DNA of 15,774 bases, taken from NCBI GenBank assembly GCA_038046605.1, contig JBBSVW010000088.1, positions 1 to 15,774 of the forward strand. Direction: 5' to 3'. The first letter of the stretch is position 1, and every line of letters begins with the position of its first letter. Made by a program: the position numbers and the translations under genes. Positions 1,394 through 15,774 of the stretch are shown piece after piece. The stretch comes from Candidatus Micrarchaeota archaeon. Its GTDB lineage: Archaea > Micrarchaeota > Micrarchaeia > Norongarragalinales > SBBD01. Below the pieces are notes generated by a model, which was not told the origin of the DNA, searched no databases, and saw only the letters and a program-made list of their open reading frames with translations.

Positions 1394-1801
1394 ATGAAAC
1401 GAAGGGAACGCATCCTGGAGATGCGCAAAATATTCAAGCAAAAGCTGCTTAGGCCCCTAGCCGCGATGATGTATTTTGAAATGCACATTAAAGAAAAGAA
1501 AATAGAGGAAGGCATCAGGTTGGAACACTTCGAAAGGCAACTCCTCGAAAAGCTCACTTTGGAATCCAATGCATTCCATGATTTCCTCCAATCGCACGAA
1601 TTTAGCAGCCGCCCGAAGCTTTCCAATTTGATTTTGCAAAAGTTAATTTCAGTAAATGCGGCAATAAAGGGACTTAGGGCGCGCTATATTTTCCAAAAGG
1701 AAACGCCGGAATTGTTCGATGCGATGGCTCGGGGAATCAAGACGATGATGGCCGAAATTGAAAAATTCGAGGCTTTTGAGGAAAGGAACAGATTATTTTA
1801 G
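1394..1801 (+). CDS. Hypothetical charged, probably helical protein (start at ATG1394 or GTG1352)
   Basis: Longest ORF in the interval, K/E/L-rich; its stop overlaps the stop of the convergent gene. No family recognised. Confidence 0.65.
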   Translation: MKRRERILEMRKIFKQKLLRPLAAMMYFEMHIKEKKIEEGIRLEHFERQLLEKLTLESNAFHDFLQSHEFSSRPKLSNLILQKLISVNAAIKGLRARYIFQKETPELFDAMARGIKTMMAEIEKFEAFEERNRLF

Positions 1802-4698: not shown

Positions 4699-4830
4699 CC
4701 AAAAAAGACGAGCCAATCGGGGAATTAAATTTAGCCATTGGCTTTTTGCACCCATATTTGTTATGATTCGAATGCCAAAGCTAATTAAATTTTGCTTGAG
4801 CAATTACTGCGTGGAGGCGGGGGGATACGC

Positions 4831-5397
4831 ATGAGACCAAGCCTTGCCATGAATTTTTTGCTGATTCTTTTGGGGATTGCAATTGGCCTAATTGCCAGCG
4901 AATATTTTGAGGGGCCCATTCCCCAAAAATTAATTGCGAACGCCAAAACGGTGGATTTTTGCCTTGCAAGCGCAATTATTTCCCCCGGAGCTGGGGATGA
5001 GATGGTCGCCATTATGGACAATGCAAAAAGCAGCATCCACATCATCCTTTTCGAATTTTCCTATCCGGATTTGAAGGAAGCGCTCGTGCATGCGGCCCAA
5101 AGGGGAGTGGATGTGAAATTGATATTGGATCCCAAAGTGAGCCAGAATTTGGATACGGCAAAATTCCTTAAAGCTAAGGGGATTGATGTGAAGTGGTCTT
5201 CCTCAAAATTCAACTATAACCATGCAAAAACGGCCATCTTAGACGGAAGGAAGGTGCTAACGGGAAGCATCAATTGGAGCCGGAATGCGATGACAAGAAA
5301 CCGTGAAATTGGGGTGCTGGTGGAGGATTTGGCTGTTGCATCGGAATTGGAGGGGGTATTTTGGCAGGATTGGAACGATGCATCGGAAGTAAAATAA
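4831..5397 (+). CDS. Phospholipase D-family (Nuc-like, single HKD) protein with N-terminal membrane anchor or signal
   Basis: HAKTAILD (HxKxxxxD) and TGSINWS...NREIG motifs; AKSSIHI and AAQRGVDVKLILD are typical of PLDc_2 domains; hydrophobic N-terminus. Confidence 0.9.
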   Translation: MRPSLAMNFLLILLGIAIGLIASEYFEGPIPQKLIANAKTVDFCLASAIISPGAGDEMVAIMDNAKSSIHIILFEFSYPDLKEALVHAAQRGVDVKLILDPKVSQNLDTAKFLKAKGIDVKWSSSKFNYNHAKTAILDGRKVLTGSINWSRNAMTRNREIGVLVEDLAVASELEGVFWQDWNDASEVK

Positions 5398-5450: not shown

Positions 5451-5924
5451 ATGTCCATGGATCTAAAAGAGCTAGAAATTCGAAATGCAAGCAGGAAGGA
5501 GCTATATACGATTACGGTGCTCACCCGAAAATTCTTCCCCTATACCGGCTTTAACATGGAAATGATCGCAAAAAGGCTCAAGGATGGGAGCATCCATTAT
5601 TTGGTTGCGCTCATGGGCGGCTATACCGCCGGATTCATTGATTTCAAGGAGAATGCAAAAAGCATTAAAATAATGGGCCTTGCGGTAATTCCGGAAATGC
5701 AGCGCAAGGGGATTGGAAGGAGATTGGTGGAGGAGGCAATTGAATTTGCAAAAACAAAGCGCAAGGAGGTCGTATACCTTTTGGTAGCCTCCGAGAATTC
5801 GTCCGCCCTTAAGATGTATGAAAAGTTCGGATTCAAATCGAAGGGAAAGCTTGCTAGGCAGATATGGGGGCAGGAAGTATTATTACTTTTTAAGCAAATA
5901 AGGAAGGGTAAGGCGACACGATAG
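5451..5924 (+). CDS. GNAT family N-acetyltransferase (RimI-like)
   Basis: Acetyl-CoA motif LAVIPEMQRKGIGRRL and N..A..MYEKFGF. Confidence 0.9.
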   Translation: MSMDLKELEIRNASRKELYTITVLTRKFFPYTGFNMEMIAKRLKDGSIHYLVALMGGYTAGFIDFKENAKSIKIMGLAVIPEMQRKGIGRRLVEEAIEFAKTKRKEVVYLLVASENSSALKMYEKFGFKSKGKLARQIWGQEVLLLFKQIRKGKATR

Positions 5925-6063
5925 GGAATGCACTAGAAACCTAAGAGTTTCTAGGCACGCCCAGAACCAACCCGGTTCTGGAGCGACGTAGTTTCCCTTT
6001 GTGTCAGGTTGATATGGGGGCAGGAGGTGCTTTTATTGTTTAAGGAATTGAAAAAAGGAAAAA
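5861..6063 (+). repeat. Diverged direct repeat of the GNAT 3' end (5861-~5913 and 6011-~6063), period 150 bp
   Basis: Both copies start with the identical 15-mer GATATGGGGGCAGGA; they translate to IWGQEVLLLFKQIRKGK and IWGQEVLLLFKELKKGK. Confidence 0.9.
5915..6005 (+). mobile_element. Composite palindromic element: GACA...TGTC outer stem with a nested 57-bp twin hairpin (putative REP/MITE-like)
   Basis: Outer arms GACACGATAGGGAA / TTCCCTTTGTGTC; inner hairpins CTAGAAAC-CTAAGA-GTTTCTAG and CCAGAACC-AACCC-GGTTCTGG. The structure is seen directly; mobility is inferred. Confidence 0.55.
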
Positions 6064-6112
6064 GCCGTAAAAGTAAAGGTTAAAAATAATCCAATGTATT
6101 CAATTTCGTATT

Positions 6113-6370
6113 ATGGGCTTCATAGAAAATACCCTAGCTAACCTGCTTAAGGATATAGGAACAAGCATCCGCAAATTCACCGCGTTCGTATTCTTGGTTT
6201 TTGCTATCGGAGTGATAGTTGGCGAGCATGTGGCGTCCAGGGGAGGGGACCCAAGCATGCTCCAAATGGCATATTCCGTTCCGCTTGTTTTGGCCCTTGC
6301 TTCCTATCTATTTGTTGAAATTGCTATAGCATTTTTCGCGCTATTCATGATTCTTCTGATTTTCCTGTGA
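6113..6370 (+). CDS. Small hypothetical membrane protein (2-3 TM)
   Basis: ATG start; strongly hydrophobic; first of three tightly spaced + strand genes. Confidence 0.75.
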   Translation: MGFIENTLANLLKDIGTSIRKFTAFVFLVFAIGVIVGEHVASRGGDPSMLQMAYSVPLVLALASYLFVEIAIAFFALFMILLIFL

Positions 6371-6374
6371 GAAT

Positions 6375-6614
6375 ATGGCAAACCTGAAGGGGAGCGGAGG
6401 GGCAATAGTGTTCATGGCAATGGCAATCATTGGGATTTCCCTAATAGCCTACTCATTCATGGGGAATGACAACCCTTCCGCAATAAAAGATCCGGCTCCA
6501 TCTCCCGGGTACCCAACAAGCACCCCCACTTACAATCCGACAAATAGGTCAACAGTTACAATTGCAACCGTTGCCGTAGGGGGCGATGAGCCTCCGCCGC
6601 TGCCGCCAGAATAA
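6375..6614 (+). CDS. Small single-TM protein with Pro/Thr-rich tail ending DEPPPLPPE
   Basis: Starts 4 nt after the previous stop; N-terminal TM followed by a low-complexity P/T segment. Confidence 0.7.
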   Translation: MANLKGSGGAIVFMAMAIIGISLIAYSFMGNDNPSAIKDPAPSPGYPTSTPTYNPTNRSTVTIATVAVGGDEPPPLPPE

Positions 6615-11271: not shown

Positions 11272-11368
11272 GTAAGAATCACGCATACGGGCAGATGTGG
11301 CAGCCGGGCAAGAGGGCGAAAACCACCTCTGAGAAAACCTTAAACTTACCCCTTAAATACGCAAACAA

Positions 11369-11421
11369 ACTAAGGGGGTGACGACCCGACAAGAGTAGGG
11401 GGATATCCCCATAGGCTTGTC
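11369..11421 (+). repeat. GACA...TGTC palindrome (34 bp, 11388-11421) with G-rich leader; third family copy
   Basis: ACTAAGGGGGTGACGACCC-GACAAGAGTAG-GGGGATATCCCC-ATAGGCTTGTC-AG. Confidence 0.7.
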
Positions 11422-13437: not shown

Positions 13438-15774
13438 ATGTTCCGCCAATTTTTCGCGCTTTTGATTTTAGTTCTTGCATCAGCAAGCGCATTTTCCGAA
13501 TTCGGGCATTTGTTCCCGGAAAGGCAGCCCGCAAGCCTCATTTACCTTATGCTCCAACCCAGGGATTGCGGAGAACTCGCAATCAATTTCGAGCCGGTTC
13601 CAAGGAACGCAATTCCAACAGATTCTAGGGACGCCCTATTGCATTATGACATCGCAATGGGGGATTTGGAAATGCTATTAAAGTTTGCAAAATATGTCCC
13701 TTTTTCCGCATACAGCATGCAGCCAATGAGCGCTTATTCGGTTATTTGCCATCAGGGCGCAATTGATGCGATAAACCATGCATCCGCCTCATTGAAATCA
13801 CTATTTTTGGAAATTGATGAAAAGGCGGCCCGATTGGACCTGCTGCAGGGGGATGAGGAGGTATTTTCTTCAGGAATGGCAGTTGAAAAAAGGCAATTGG
13901 AATTTGAGATTGCAAATGGAAAGCGCGATGGGAAATTCGTTGAGGCAGTTCTGGAAGCATCTGGAAATCTAAGCAGGTTCTGGGCGCAGTTCCCATTCAA
14001 GACGGATGGTTTTTTGGCAATTTCCAAAATACTTGGTGCAGGCGGTGCCTTGCATGAGGCGGCAATTTTTTCAACCAGGATCGGATTGGCAACTACGGAG
14101 CTTGAGGCATTGCAATTAAATGCCACACGAGGATATGCAAGCGCATTATTTGATGCGCAGGAAGGGATCCTTCGCCTAAGGCAGGATAAGATCGATGCGA
14201 TAAGGGGGAGCGATGCATTTTATTTATTAAAGCAGGGTTTGGGCCAAAATCCAATAAGCCCAATTTCGGGGAATTTCTATTCACAAATCAAGGAGCTCGA
14301 TTCTGAAATTGGAAAGGCAAGGTCCATGCACACCCAATCCGAAAAAACGCTGGCGGCAAAAATGAGAGGCTATCTGGCGCATGCCTATTTGCTGGAAAGC
14401 GGCGCAAACGGAATCCTAATGGATGCGGCTTTTGAAGAAAATGAAATAGCAAGGGAAGCGGAAGAATTGGAAAATGCCTTAACAGCCCTTATGGATCATT
14501 TGGGGGATCAAATCAAAACCGAATTAGGGTTAAAAATTTCCGACCCAATTGCACACGAATACCTATCCGGGAGGTTTTTGGAAATTGAAAAAAGAAGGCA
14601 AATGTCCCCTTTTTCGGCACCCATTGGCGAGAGGGTAAATGCCTTGGCTGCAATAAGCGTGGAAATGGATGCGCTCCTTAATTCCGCATCCGCATCCGAT
14701 GTGGCAGCATACAAGCTTGCCCAAATCAAGGGAAAAACCCAAACGCTCAATTCCCTAATTGGGAGGGCAAGAAAGGAGGGAATTGATGCATTCGATGAGG
14801 AGGCGGCATATTCGTCGCTTAGGGGCGCCCTTGCAGGGGTCGGTTATGATGCAAACCTTTTTTTGCTTGAGGGTTTGGAAAAAAGCGCCGATGGGATAAA
14901 AAGCGCAATTGAGGCGAAGGCGAAGGGAAGGTTCGCATACCTGGAAGGGATTTACTTCGAAATTATTTCGCATAAGGAATACCTGGATTTGCAGGATAGG
15001 ATAAAATTGGAAAATTATGGGCGGTTTTTTGATGGGGAAAGGCTCAATTTGCTTGAAAACCTTGGAGAGCTTGCGGATTTCGAGGCATTCGCCTTGAAAA
15101 AATCCGAGGAATTCGAGGCAAAAAAACCAGGGATTATTTCCCGGGAACTTGAGGCCTCATTGGTAGTCAGGGAAATATCAAAACCAACCATGCTCGATGT
15201 TCCAACCGCATTCACAGCATACGTAAATATTGAAAACCGCCTGGATTTCTTTTCGCCAAACGTGCGGGTTAGGCTTCCCCTGCCAGAAAGCGCAACCTTG
15301 GCAAATGCATCGCGGGGAATCAGCCTGCTTAGGGAAAATGGCGCGTTGTACTTGAATATTCGGGAGAAGATGGATAGGTACTTTGCAATTTTGGAATATT
15401 CGCAAATTGCCAACGAAGCCGGATTGGATAAAACGGAATTTGAGAGTGTGGAATTTGAAAAAATAAGCCTTGTTCGGACAATTGCCTTCACCACAACCAA
15501 ATATTCGCATGCGATTATAGCAATTGATGCGCCATCGGAATCTTTCCACATGAGCTATTCGGGAGAATATTCCCAAGAGATAGCTGATGGGAAAATCAAC
15601 ATGGTTTTGGAGGCATATCCCGGGAAAAATAAGCTGGCAATCCGGTTCGAAATCCCTTCACCATTCACAGTAAAGGAGGCGGCGGGCCGGGGCGATTCCA
15701 CATCGCAGGAAATCGGATTTGAATTTGCCAATACCGCCATAGATGTGCCTTTTTCGGGCATAGCCCTGGATAGG
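13438..15774 (+). CDS. Large secreted hypothetical protein, at least 779 aa, truncated by the window edge (not in ORF track)
   Basis: Open frame from ATG13438 to the window end; signal peptide MFRQFFALLILVLASASAF; helical A/E/L-rich middle and a beta-like C-terminal region. Confidence 0.85.
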   Translation, partial: MFRQFFALLILVLASASAFSEFGHLFPERQPASLIYLMLQPRDCGELAINFEPVPRNAIPTDSRDALLHYDIAMGDLEMLLKFAKYVPFSAYSMQPMSAYSVICHQGAIDAINHASASLKSLFLEIDEKAARLDLLQGDEEVFSSGMAVEKRQLEFEIANGKRDGKFVEAVLEASGNLSRFWAQFPFKTDGFLAISKILGAGGALHEAAIFSTRIGLATTELEALQLNATRGYASALFDAQEGILRLRQDKIDAIRGSDAFYLLKQGLGQNPISPISGNFYSQIKELDSEIGKARSMHTQSEKTLAAKMRGYLAHAYLLESGANGILMDAAFEENEIAREAEELENALTALMDHLGDQIKTELGLKISDPIAHEYLSGRFLEIEKRRQMSPFSAPIGERVNALAAISVEMDALLNSASASDVAAYKLAQIKGKTQTLNSLIGRARKEGIDAFDEEAAYSSLRGALAGVGYDANLFLLEGLEKSADGIKSAIEAKAKGRFAYLEGIYFEIISHKEYLDLQDRIKLENYGRFFDGERLNLLENLGELADFEAFALKKSEEFEAKKPGIISRELEASLVVREISKPTMLDVPTAFTAYVNIENRLDFFSPNVRVRLPLPESATLANASRGISLLRENGALYLNIREKMDRYFAILEYSQIANEAGLDKTEFESVEFEKISLVRTIAFTTTKYSHAIIAIDAPSESFHMSYSGEYSQEIADGKINMVLEAYPGKNKLAIRFEIPSPFTVKEAAGRGDSTSQEIGFEFANTAIDVPFSGIALDR

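What the first reader, a model, noticed from the sequence alone, without database searches (positions are those of the whole stretch)
5861..6082. 150-bp unit that duplicates and may have replaced the GNAT C-terminus, bounded by a perfect 15-bp direct repeat
Seen: GATATGGGGGCAGGA occurs at 5861-5875 and 6011-6025, exactly 150 bp apart and in frame. Copy 1 completes the live gene (IWGQEVLLLFKQIRKGKATR*). Copy 2 is a stranded alternative end (IWGQEVLLLFKELKKGKSRKSKG*). Over the first 11 codons every difference is synonymous (GAA/GAG, GTA/GTG, TTA/CTT, CTT/TTG), so both ends appear to have evolved under coding selection, as orthologous alleles rather than a decaying local duplicate. The palindromic element sits between them and copy 2 begins 5 nt after its right end. 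Inference: a mini-circle or ssDNA made of a relative's gene 3' end plus the hairpin element integrated by single crossover at the 15-bp core, an attP-like gene-end replacement with no enzyme gene on board.
Basis: partly seen in the sequence, partly recalled or inferred. Interest (0 to 1): 0.8.

Follow-up and report, generated by a model that had tools for sequence, protein, structure and literature searches.

The report
Mobile hairpin element duplicating gene end
A tiny gene-less hairpin element, common in one family of ultrasmall archaea, sits inside the last codons of an acetyltransferase gene between two copies of the gene's end that differ the way working alleles of two species differ, so one end seems to have been brought in by recombination, not left to decay.

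Summary
The 15-nt repeat lies at 5861-5875 and 6011-6025, 150 nt apart, inside a 39-nt duplication of the GNAT gene end.

The DNA between the copies is one member of a hairpin repeat family. My covariance model finds 84 matches in this genome and matches in 10 of 10 sampled genomes of its family, but in only 1 of 30 genomes of other families of the order.

Five of six same-genus relatives have an empty site with an ...ELK/DLK-type tail. Copy 2 is therefore the displaced native end. The last nine codons of copy 1 (QIRKGKATR*) are not a GNAT allele. They are read from the element's conserved left arm and stem.

In this genome 17 of 44 family copies carry similar flanking duplications of 20-67 nt. 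Some are perfect. Others differ almost only at synonymous sites: 55 synonymous against 16 non-synonymous codon differences, and 0 of 5000 neutral-decay simulations were as low. The copies are as diverged as orthologues of other species.

Best reading: a non-autonomous element inserts with a long target duplication, and its "gene end + hairpin" cassette then recombines between diverged lineages.

This scan has already noted the same phenomenon in other DPANN genomes. My literature searches found no published description.

The parts
5451..5924 (+). GNAT acetyltransferase gene (157 aa). Its last 9 codons and stop (5895-5924) are read from the inserted element.
   Evidence: ORF. Pfam Acetyltransf_1 E=1.1e-17. 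Orthologues in 40 of 41 related genomes.
5856..5894 (+). Copy 1 of the duplicated gene end (RQIWGQEVLLLFK). It is live and contains the perfect 15-mer at 5861-5875.
5895..5914 (+). Truncated left arm of the hairpin element (..CAAATAAGGAAGGGTAAGGC). The family consensus is AATTCGCAGAAGTAAATAAGGGGGTAGAGGC.
   Evidence: The family HMM matches 5887-5926. Contigs of other family copies lie on 5896-5928. Consensus.
5915..6005 (.). Hairpin core. The outer stem is GACAC (5915-5919) with GTGTC (6001-6005). The inner stem is GGGAA (5924-5928) with TTCCC (5993-5997). The in-frame TAG stop lies at 5922-5924.
   Evidence: Sequence. Folds. The short forms of the family have the same stems.
5929..5987 (.). 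Nested twin-hairpin module: CTAGAAAC 5933-5940 with GTTTCTAG 5947-5954, and CCAGAACC 5961-5968 with GGTTCTGG 5974-5981. It sits in the loop of the core hairpin.
   Evidence: The same module occurs in other copies in either orientation and at another position of the core: C31, C23, C9 and C103.
6006..6044 (+). Copy 2 of the duplicated gene end (RLIWGQEVLLLFK), displaced. It contains the perfect 15-mer at 6011-6025.
6045..6083 (+). Displaced native tail ELKKGKSRKSKG* that follows copy 2.
   Evidence: Empty-site orthologues end ..KELKPGKQA*..KDLKKKKV* and ..KKLKKRNG*.
6113..6370 (+). Downstream 85-aa membrane-protein gene. It is syntenic in relatives and marks the native right flank.
   Evidence: The same gene follows the GNAT gene in G005, G001, G003 and G010.

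Best explanation
The 111 nt at 5895-6005 are a non-autonomous, gene-less hairpin element of a repeat family restricted to one family of Micrarchaeota. It lies 13 codons into the end of the GNAT gene.

The element's right end is precise (..GTGTC). Its left arm is truncated and supplies stop codons. In this reading frame it adds a short basic tail (QIRKGKATR*). A 39-nt copy of the target lies on each side, so the gene stays closed and almost unchanged. The native end (copy 2 plus ELKKGKSRKSKG*) is pushed downstream and silenced.

Step 1: the family inserts together with a long, variable duplication of the target (20-67 nt). This is shown by young copies elsewhere in the genome.

Step 2: the direct repeats make the unit "gene end + hairpin" a recombining cassette. 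The unit is exchanged between lineages diverged at about species level and joins the homologous gene end by recombination inside the short homology. As a result copy 1 and copy 2 come from two different working alleles. This step is inferred.

On this reading copy 2 is a recently silenced fossil of the resident allele, and most of copy 1 plus the hairpin came from elsewhere. Host recombination is assumed to do the work, because no element-encoded or obviously dedicated enzyme was found.
For: Family membership:
- The HMM gives 61 hits at E<1e-3.
- The covariance model R1 gives 84 matches in G000 and 4-72 in each of the other 10 genomes of family f1. It matches only 1 of 30 genomes of other families of the order.
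- The exact core motif was found in 36 stretches of the 185,579-species collection. Of these, 35 lie in records titled Micrarchaeota, Norongarragalinales or 'archaeon'.

Empty sites:
- G005, G001, G003, G004 and G006 have the GNAT gene without an element, with native-type tails. A metagenome contig, L021, shows the same.

Independent hit in the same gene:
- G002 has a short-form hairpin 9 nt further on, again with a 39-nt duplication: 7 codons the same, 5 synonymous, 1 non-synonymous.

Step 1:
- 17 of 44 copies in G000 have flanking duplications. The right-hand copy starts 0-6 nt after GTGTC in 13 of the 17.
- Perfect duplications occur at C55 (36 nt), C76 (29 nt) and C26 (20 nt). C42 has 43 nt with 1 mismatch.

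Allele-like divergence:
- In 11 pairs (171 codons), 100 codons are identical, 55 differ synonymously and 16 non-synonymously. Nucleotide differences by codon position are 17/12/61.
- The neutral-decay null expects 62 non-synonymous codons, and 0 of 5000 simulations gave 16 or fewer.
- Copy 1 against copy 2 is 31/39 identical, the same as copy 2 against the G001 orthologue.
- In the C73 array the gene-end copies are 37-44/54 identical to each other and 39-44/54 identical to the live end of G005.

Cassette behaviour:
- At C73:31336-31863 five copies of one gene end are stacked. Three units share identical junctions but have hairpins of different subtypes (H1 resembles H3; H2 differs).
- G003 has one unit at the same junction, with 4 synonymous and 0 non-synonymous differences.

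Reality of the locus:
- Contigs of a second sample and of another study support the arrangement.
Against: - No empty allele, circle or donor allele of this locus was seen in four runs. These are contigs, which drop rare variants, so the evidence is weak.
- No relative sampled carries a GNAT end close to copy 1. The best match is 29/39.
- Some diverged pairs share identity blocks of only 8-9 nt (C34; C73 a/b). That is little for homologous recombination.
- No enzyme is identified. RVT_1, Phage_integrase and the TnpB zinc ribbon all gave 0 hits in a genome that is 90.7% complete. The single IS200-like Y1 transposase has terminal hairpins unlike this family.
- The pairs are not all independent, because four share copies of the C73 array. 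I also dropped gapped pairs and 5'-end pairs.
- The same pattern could arise if only the live gene, up to the element boundary, was replaced by recombination.
Confidence: 0.5

Rival explanations
1. Frozen relic plus allelic replacement. The element inserted here once with a perfect 39-nt target duplication. Later the live GNAT gene, up to the homology boundary at the element, was overwritten by homologous recombination with a diverged allele that may lack the element. Copy 2 keeps the old resident allele. No cassette or circle ever moved.
For: Perfect long duplications elsewhere show that this mode of insertion exists. The differences are allele-like. This model needs no integration through 15-40 nt of imperfect homology.
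Against: The C73 array has three units with identical junctions and an identically truncated left arm, yet their hairpins are of different subtypes, and neighbouring units are not the most alike. Serial insertion or tandem duplication followed by replacement explains this poorly. Differences lie on both sides of the identical core in the window and at C23:63632.
Confidence: 0.22
2. Both copies stay under protein-level selection in place because both are used. Possible routes are removal of the element and one repeat from part of the mRNA, ribosome bypass of the hairpin, or frequent DNA excision and re-insertion.
For: Silent copies keep open, conserved peptides at species-level divergence. Members of the family sit inside a tRNA intron that must be spliced out: removing 81 nt restores a standard tRNA-Gly.
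Against: I see no bulge-helix-bulge motif at the window element's borders by inspection. The fold shows a stem with an internal loop. In the tRNA the element lies in the opposite orientation to its orientation in the GNAT mRNA. Copy 2 has no start codon, and three in-frame stops precede it. Only 5 of 11 pairs are spaced in frame. Arrays are not shared by sister species: G005, G002 and G004 lack them.
Confidence: 0.1
3. An ordinary MITE or REP-type insertion whose target duplication is simply decaying, with the synonymous pattern arising by chance.
For: It is a multi-copy hairpin repeat with flanking direct repeats.
Against: In the window, 0 of 20000 simulations matched the observed pattern. 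Across 11 pairs, 0 of 5000 did. There are no frameshifts or stops in copies as diverged as other species' orthologues.
Confidence: 0.05
4. Assembly chimera of two strains joined through a repeat.
For: The genome is a metagenome-assembled genome of 106 contigs. The element is a repeat.
Against: An independent per-run assembly from another sample spans 5822-6500 with no differences. The left junction is identical in a run of another study. The nearest other copy of the long form is only 76% identical. The same architecture recurs in other genomes.
Confidence: 0.03

Closest known systems
Insertion with long target duplication (Nobusato et al. 2000, recalled; Furuta et al. 2010, PMC2853133, passages read)
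   Same: An insert with no mobility gene is flanked by direct repeats longer than 30 bp of a sequence that occurs once in the empty genome. The repeat often overlaps a gene's 3' end. The authors propose that the flanking repeats allow amplification and release.
   Different: There the cargo is a restriction-modification gene unit of kilobase size in bacteria, the repeats are nearly identical, and no archaeal case passed their screen. Here the insert is a 60-110-nt hairpin present in dozens of copies, and the repeats differ like alleles.
Integrative elements that replace a gene end (prophage e14 at icd, with the displaced icdC fragment; PMC13626634, passages read)
   Same: The live gene runs into the element. 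A displaced C-terminal fragment lies on the far side. The two ends differ mostly at synonymous sites. Excision recombines them.
   Different: e14 is a 15-kb prophage with an integrase (recalled) and one fixed att site. Here there is no integrase in the element or, as far as searched, in the genome. The element is about 100 nt, and many different genes are targets.
REP/REPIN elements with RAYT transposases (PMC3116915, search listing only; the rest recalled)
   Same: Short GC-rich imperfect palindromes in tens of copies, non-autonomous and lineage-restricted. This genome holds one single-copy Y1 transposase.
   Different: REPs are extragenic and make no target duplication (recalled). Here the Y1 gene has unrelated terminal hairpins, and the elements sit inside gene ends with 20-67-nt duplications.
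C-terminal duplications next to mobile endonuclease ORFs in fungal mitochondrial genes (PMC6279837, passages read)
   Same: A mobile insert at a gene's end is accompanied by a second copy of the C-terminal coding segment, so the gene stays functional.
   Different: Those inserts encode GIY-YIG or LAGLIDADG endonucleases. Here no ORF is carried.

Membership tests
MITE (miniature inverted-repeat transposable element) | Short, non-coding, multi-copy element | tested here: met
   111 nt with no ORF. 84 covariance-model matches in the genome.
MITE (miniature inverted-repeat transposable element) | Short target-site duplication of fixed length, set by the transposase | tested here: not met
   The duplications are 20, 29, 36, 39, 43 and up to 67 nt.
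MITE (miniature inverted-repeat transposable element) | A parent insertion sequence with matching ends and a transposase | tested here: not met
   The only transposase-type hit is an IS200-like Y1 gene whose end hairpins differ from this family. No kb-sized split copy appears among the HMM hits. The genome is 90.7% complete.
REP/REPIN-RAYT | A RAYT gene flanked by the repeats it mobilises, with extragenic repeats and no target duplication | tested here: not met
   The nearest family copy lies about 1.1 kb from the Y1 gene, beside a tRNA. The elements lie in gene ends and carry duplications.
Integrative element with a gene-end-replacing attachment site (e14/icd type) | A displaced gene-end fragment that differs from the live end like an allele | tested here: met
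Integrative element with a gene-end-replacing attachment site (e14/icd type) | A site-specific recombinase and one fixed attachment core | tested here: not met
   Phage_integrase gave 0 hits in G000. The duplicated sequence is different at every locus.
Insertion with long target duplication | Direct repeats longer than 30 bp flank the insert and align to a single copy in a genome without the insert, with no mobility gene present | tested here: met
   A 39-nt repeat here. Single-copy gene ends in G005, G001, G003, G004 and G006.
Archaeal bulge-helix-bulge intron | Two 3-nt bulges separated by a 4-bp helix at the borders of the excised segment | tested here: not met
   By inspection and the fold, the borders form a continuous stem with an internal loop. 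For comparison, the tRNA-Gly intron that contains a family copy does have TTCA/TGAA flanked by AAT bulges.
Diversity-generating retroelement (variable and template repeat) | A reverse transcriptase nearby and differences confined to adenines of the template repeat | tested here: not met
   RVT_1 gave 0 hits. The differences are of several kinds and sit at third codon positions.

The most novel reading that the evidence does not exclude
A new class of enzyme-less mobile DNA. It is a 60-110-nt hairpin that travels with a working copy of its target's last (or first) codons. It hops between species-level lineages of Micrarchaeota and lands at the homologous gene end by homology to its own cargo. 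Behind the live gene it leaves stacks of silenced but intact "fossil alleles", up to five at one ATPase gene. This would be a natural record of inter-lineage DNA exchange in organisms that cannot be cultured.
Probability: 0.35. Interest if true: 0.85.

Novelty: new variant of a known kind. Interest (0 to 1): 0.68.

Why it matters
If the reading holds, these elements show how a streamlined, gene-dense archaeal genome tolerates dozens of insertions inside genes. The element brings stops in one orientation. In the other orientation it brings what looks like a promoter, though I did not test this. It also keeps a copy of the piece it displaces.

The allele-like silent copies would be direct sequence evidence of DNA exchange between species-level lineages of DPANN archaea. 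They would also give a dated series of past alleles at each locus.

The same hairpins sit in tRNA introns. They may therefore bear on the open question of how archaeal tRNA introns are gained.

For annotation, the gene ends and short tails next to these elements (here QIRKGKATR*) are element-derived and should not be read as native protein sequence.

Tried and rejected
- Rfam: no family matched the window at gathering score. None matched L001 or L002 at E<=1.
- ARAGORN found no tRNA in the window.
- Metagenome scan with the GNAT protein: of 80 loci only one (L021) was a useful orthologue. It has the same empty allele as G005. The other 78, apart from the window's own contig, were unrelated GNATs.
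- Laid contigs: no joint that skips the element and no circle junction. X3 has a contig that starts exactly at 6005. This could mark a graph branch or merely low depth (2.2), so I draw nothing from it. Parts without cover in X3 and X4 are not evidence.
- Viral contigs held no exact match to the core motif.
- Enzyme hunt in G000: TnpB zinc ribbon, Phage_integrase and RVT_1 all gave 0 hits. One Y1 transposase was found but has unrelated ends. A LAGLIDADG ORF beside it has no visible link to the family.
- The diversity-generating retroelement idea is rejected: no RT and no adenine-specific pattern.
- Read-through translation is rejected: there are three in-frame stops between the copies.
A coordinate-only version timed out and then ran.
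- Rows dropped before the count: C9 (gapped); the 5'-end type pairs C90, C60, C50 and C23:59181; and C42, C26 and C55:24848. For these last three the frame was unclear or the pair was identical and short.
- Supplementary files of the papers were not seen.

Full report
**1. The observation**

The window holds GATATGGGGGCAGGA at 5861-5875 and again at 6011-6025, 150 nt apart. The repeat finder extends the pair to 56 nt at 73% identity.

Copy 1 lies in the 157-aa ORF 5451-5924. This ORF is a GNAT acetyltransferase (Pfam Acetyltransf_1, E=1.1e-17). Copy 2, read in the same frame, gives ...IWGQEVLLLFKELKKGKSRKSKG*, with its stop at 6081-6083.

The duplicated block is best drawn as 39 nt, 5856-5894 against 6006-6044. 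Of its 13 codons, 8 are identical, 4 differ synonymously and 1 differs non-synonymously (Q/L).

The stretch between the copies folds into a closed three-way structure: -47.2 kcal/mol, z=-7.1 on the + strand and -43.1 kcal/mol, z=-6.3 on the - strand. Rfam and ARAGORN find nothing there.

**2. What lies between the copies**

It is one member of a repeat family. The long form has a second copy in the same genome, C31:7565-7648, at 76% identity.

Motif scans showed that the shared part is a roughly 42-nt hairpin preceded by a conserved left arm. The consensus of 20 copies is AATTCGCAGAAGTAAATAAGGGGGTAGAGGCGACACGnGTAGGGGGnTTAGCCCCCTAGAGGTGTC.

An HMM of ten copies finds 61 hits at E<1e-3. A covariance model of 20 copies finds 84 matches in this genome.

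The window's copy has three features:
- a truncated left arm (5895-5914);
- the outer stem GACAC/GTGTC (5915-5919 with 6001-6005) and an inner GGG/CCC stem;
- a nested twin-hairpin module in its loop (about 5929-5987).

In other copies the same module occurs in the opposite orientation and at another position of the core (C9, C103).

The last nine codons of the live gene (QIRKGKATR*, 5895-5924) are not a GNAT allele. They are the element's left arm and stem read in frame. The HMM match covers 5887-5926, and contigs of other family copies lie on 5896-5928.

**3. Relatives**

The GNAT gene is found in 40 of 41 related genomes. In the same genus G005, G001, G003, G004 and G006 have it without any element. 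Their tails are ...LLKKELKPGKQA*...LLYKDLKKKKV*...LLHKKLKKRNG* and similar. In G005, G001 and G003 it is followed by the same small membrane-protein gene that follows copy 2 here. The one useful metagenome orthologue is also empty.

Copy 2 with its tail is therefore the native end, displaced.

G002 has a short-form hairpin in the same gene end, shifted by 9 nt. It again has a 39-nt duplication, and the live gene again ends ...GRATR*. Its 13 codons are 7 identical, 5 synonymous and 1 non-synonymous. The shift and the different hairpin form point to an independent event.

**4. The phenomenon is genome-wide**

Of 44 well-scoring copies in this genome, 17 have a flanking duplication (local score 30 or more, z of 9 or more against shuffles). 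In 13 of the 17 the right-hand copy starts 0-6 nt after GTGTC. On the left, 8-32 nt of the left arm remain in most of these copies, more in a few. The right end is thus precise and the left end variable.

Some duplications are perfect or nearly so: C55 36 nt, C76 29 nt, C26 20 nt, C42 43 nt with one mismatch. These show that the family can arrive together with a long, variable target duplication.

Other duplications have diverged, and they diverge like coding alleles. In the HSP20 gene of C34, of 20 codons 8 are identical, 11 differ synonymously and 1 non-synonymously.

At C73:31336-31863 five copies of the end of a FlaI/GspE-type ATPase gene (D-Y-x-x-W-V-D-x-YLAKPLLKK*) are stacked, each pair separated by a hairpin.

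Both 3' ends and 5' ends of genes are duplicated. C90 is an example: MKSKRFIFKDHKAD against MKNKKFTFKDHKAD on the opposite strand.

tRNA 3' ends are duplicated as well (L112 465-487 and 662-684).

**5. Statistics**

I took 11 gapless 3'-end pairs by coordinates, 171 codons in all.
- 100 codons are identical, 55 differ synonymously and 16 non-synonymously.
- Nucleotide differences by codon position are 17, 12 and 61.
- If one copy were a neutrally decaying image of the other, with the same number of changes, the expected count is 62 non-synonymous codons (sd 3.5). None of 5000 simulations gave 16 or fewer.
- For the window alone, 0 of 20000 simulations gave 1 or fewer.

Caveats: four pairs share copies of the C73 array. 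I dropped one gapped pair, four 5'-end pairs and three short or unclear ones. A mixed null, with some changes in the live copy, would expect fewer non-synonymous changes than 62 but still far more than 16.

In a second species (G002), 9 of 22 hairpin hits in 20 fetched loci have duplications. In the four where a long ORF runs into copy 1, 50 codons split 35 identical, 10 synonymous and 5 non-synonymous.

**6. Depth of divergence**

Copy 1 and copy 2 of the window are 31/39 identical. That is the same as copy 2 against the orthologue of another species (G001, 31/39).

In the C73 array the four full copies are 37-44/54 identical to one another and 39-44/54 identical to the live end of G005. The live copy is closer to G005 (42/54) than to any of its own silent copies (37-41/54).

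Silent copies that had sat in place for that long would be scrambled. They have no stops, no frameshifts and few replacements. G005, G002 and G004 have no element at that gene, while G003 has one at the same junction.

**7. Mechanism**

Shown:
- A lineage-restricted, gene-less hairpin family. It is in 10 of 10 genomes of family f1 and 1 of 30 genomes of other families of the order. The exact motif is in 36 stretches of the species collection, 35 of them in Micrarchaeota-type records, and in none of the viral contigs.
- Insertion with long target duplication.
- Gene ends kept closed.
- Allele-like divergence of many duplications.

Inferred:
- The two copies come from two functional alleles brought together by recombination.

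I favour a cassette model at about 0.5. In it, the repeats let "gene end + hairpin" leave and re-enter at the homologous site of a diverged lineage. The reasons are these. The three upstream units of the C73 array share identical junctions and the same left-arm truncation. Their hairpins are nevertheless of different subtypes, and neighbouring units are not the most alike. Differences also lie on both sides of the identical core in the window and at C23:63632.

The main rival, at about 0.22, is a single local insertion followed by recombinational replacement of the live gene up to the element boundary.

Weaknesses:
- No empty allele, circle or donor allele was seen in four runs (contigs only).
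- Some pairs share only 8-9-nt identity blocks.
- No enzyme is identified. RVT_1, Phage_integrase and the TnpB zinc ribbon gave 0 hits. One IS200-like Y1 transposase is present, but its end hairpins are unrelated.

**8. RNA-level readings**

Family copies lie inside a T-loop intron of tRNA-Gly(GCC). In silico removal of 81 nt restores a standard 74-nt tRNA. The intron borders form TTCA/TGAA flanked by AAT bulges (read).

The hairpin there is antisense to its orientation in the GNAT mRNA. The window element's borders show no such motif. Three in-frame stops separate the copies, and only 5 of 11 pairs are spaced in frame. I give use of both copies about 0.1.

**9. Assembly**

An independent per-run assembly from a second sample covers 5822-6500 without a difference. 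A run of another study has 5801-5951 without a difference. The long form has no close copy elsewhere: the best other match is 76% identical. A chimera is unlikely (0.03).

**10. Comparison with what is known**

The nearest known kinds are these:
- Insertion with long target duplication, described for restriction-modification units in bacteria (PMC2853133, passages read).
- Integrative elements that supply a replacement gene end and leave a displaced fragment, such as e14 with icd and icdC (PMC13626634, passages read).
- REP/REPIN repeats with Y1 transposases (PMC3116915, search listing only).
- C-terminal duplications beside endonuclease ORFs in fungal mitochondria (PMC6279837, passages read).

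The element fails defining tests for MITE, REP-RAYT, integrase-type elements, BHB introns and DGRs (see Membership tests). It meets the operational definition of insertion with long target duplication.

Seven literature searches found no description of such hairpin elements in Micrarchaeota or other DPANN archaea. Supplements were not available.

Earlier notes of this scan describe the same phenomenon in other DPANN genomes. This window is therefore a further, well-documented instance and not a first sighting. Those notes gave me the leads to the long-target-duplication, e14 and fungal analogies, which I then checked in the papers.

**11. Verdict**

The feature is a new variant of known kinds. 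Interest is 0.68.

Noticed in passing
L002 (G000:C31) 1588-1742, minus strand: tRNA-Gly(GCC) is interrupted in its T-loop by an 81-nt intron (1681 down to 1601). The intron's 5' part is a short-form copy of the hairpin family. Its borders form a TTCA/TGAA helix between AAT bulges. Removing the 81 nt gives a standard 74-nt tRNA in ARAGORN.
   Followed up: partly
L002 (G000:C31) 1441-1590: A long-form copy of the element lies directly after the 3' end of that tRNA-Gly. It has the twin-hairpin module plus two further hairpins in its left part.
   Followed up: no
G000:C26 about 14560-14780, minus strand: An apparent tRNA-Asp(GTC) gene has the same hairpin inside a T-loop insert and a further insert near the anticodon. 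This was read by eye only.
   Followed up: no
G000:C73:31336-31863 (L100): Five stacked copies of the last 12-18 codons of a FlaI/GspE-type ATPase gene are separated by four hairpins. One hairpin carries a nested insert of about 50 nt. All copies keep ..YLAKPLLKK*.
   Followed up: partly
L112 (G000:C9:22500-25800): An IS200-like Y1 transposase gene (148 aa) lies next to a 277-aa LAGLIDADG-domain ORF. Beside them is a tRNA whose 3' end is duplicated (23 nt, 96% identical) around a hairpin copy.
   Followed up: partly
whole genome G000: No match to Pfam Phage_integrase (which would include XerA-type recombinases) in a genome rated 90.7% complete. All 14 control genomes gave matches.
   Followed up: no
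family consensus (alignment A1); for example G000:C90:12833-12899: Read on the opposite strand, the left arm is CCCCC-TTATTTA-CTTCTGCGAAT, which looks like an archaeal BRE/TATA box. In the copies that duplicate a gene's 5' end, it points at the live start codon. This is untested.
   Followed up: no
window 4792-5397: A PLD-like (PLDc_2, E=1.6e-27) protein gene lies directly upstream of the GNAT gene. I found no evidence linking it to the element.
   Followed up: no
window 11361-11410: A weak HMM hit to the hairpin family (E=0.085). It may be a degenerate second copy in the window.
   Followed up: no
L177: The only exact-motif hit outside archaeal records is a 2.4-kb contig filed under a Geobacteraceae MAG. 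It is probably a mis-binned contig.
   Followed up: no
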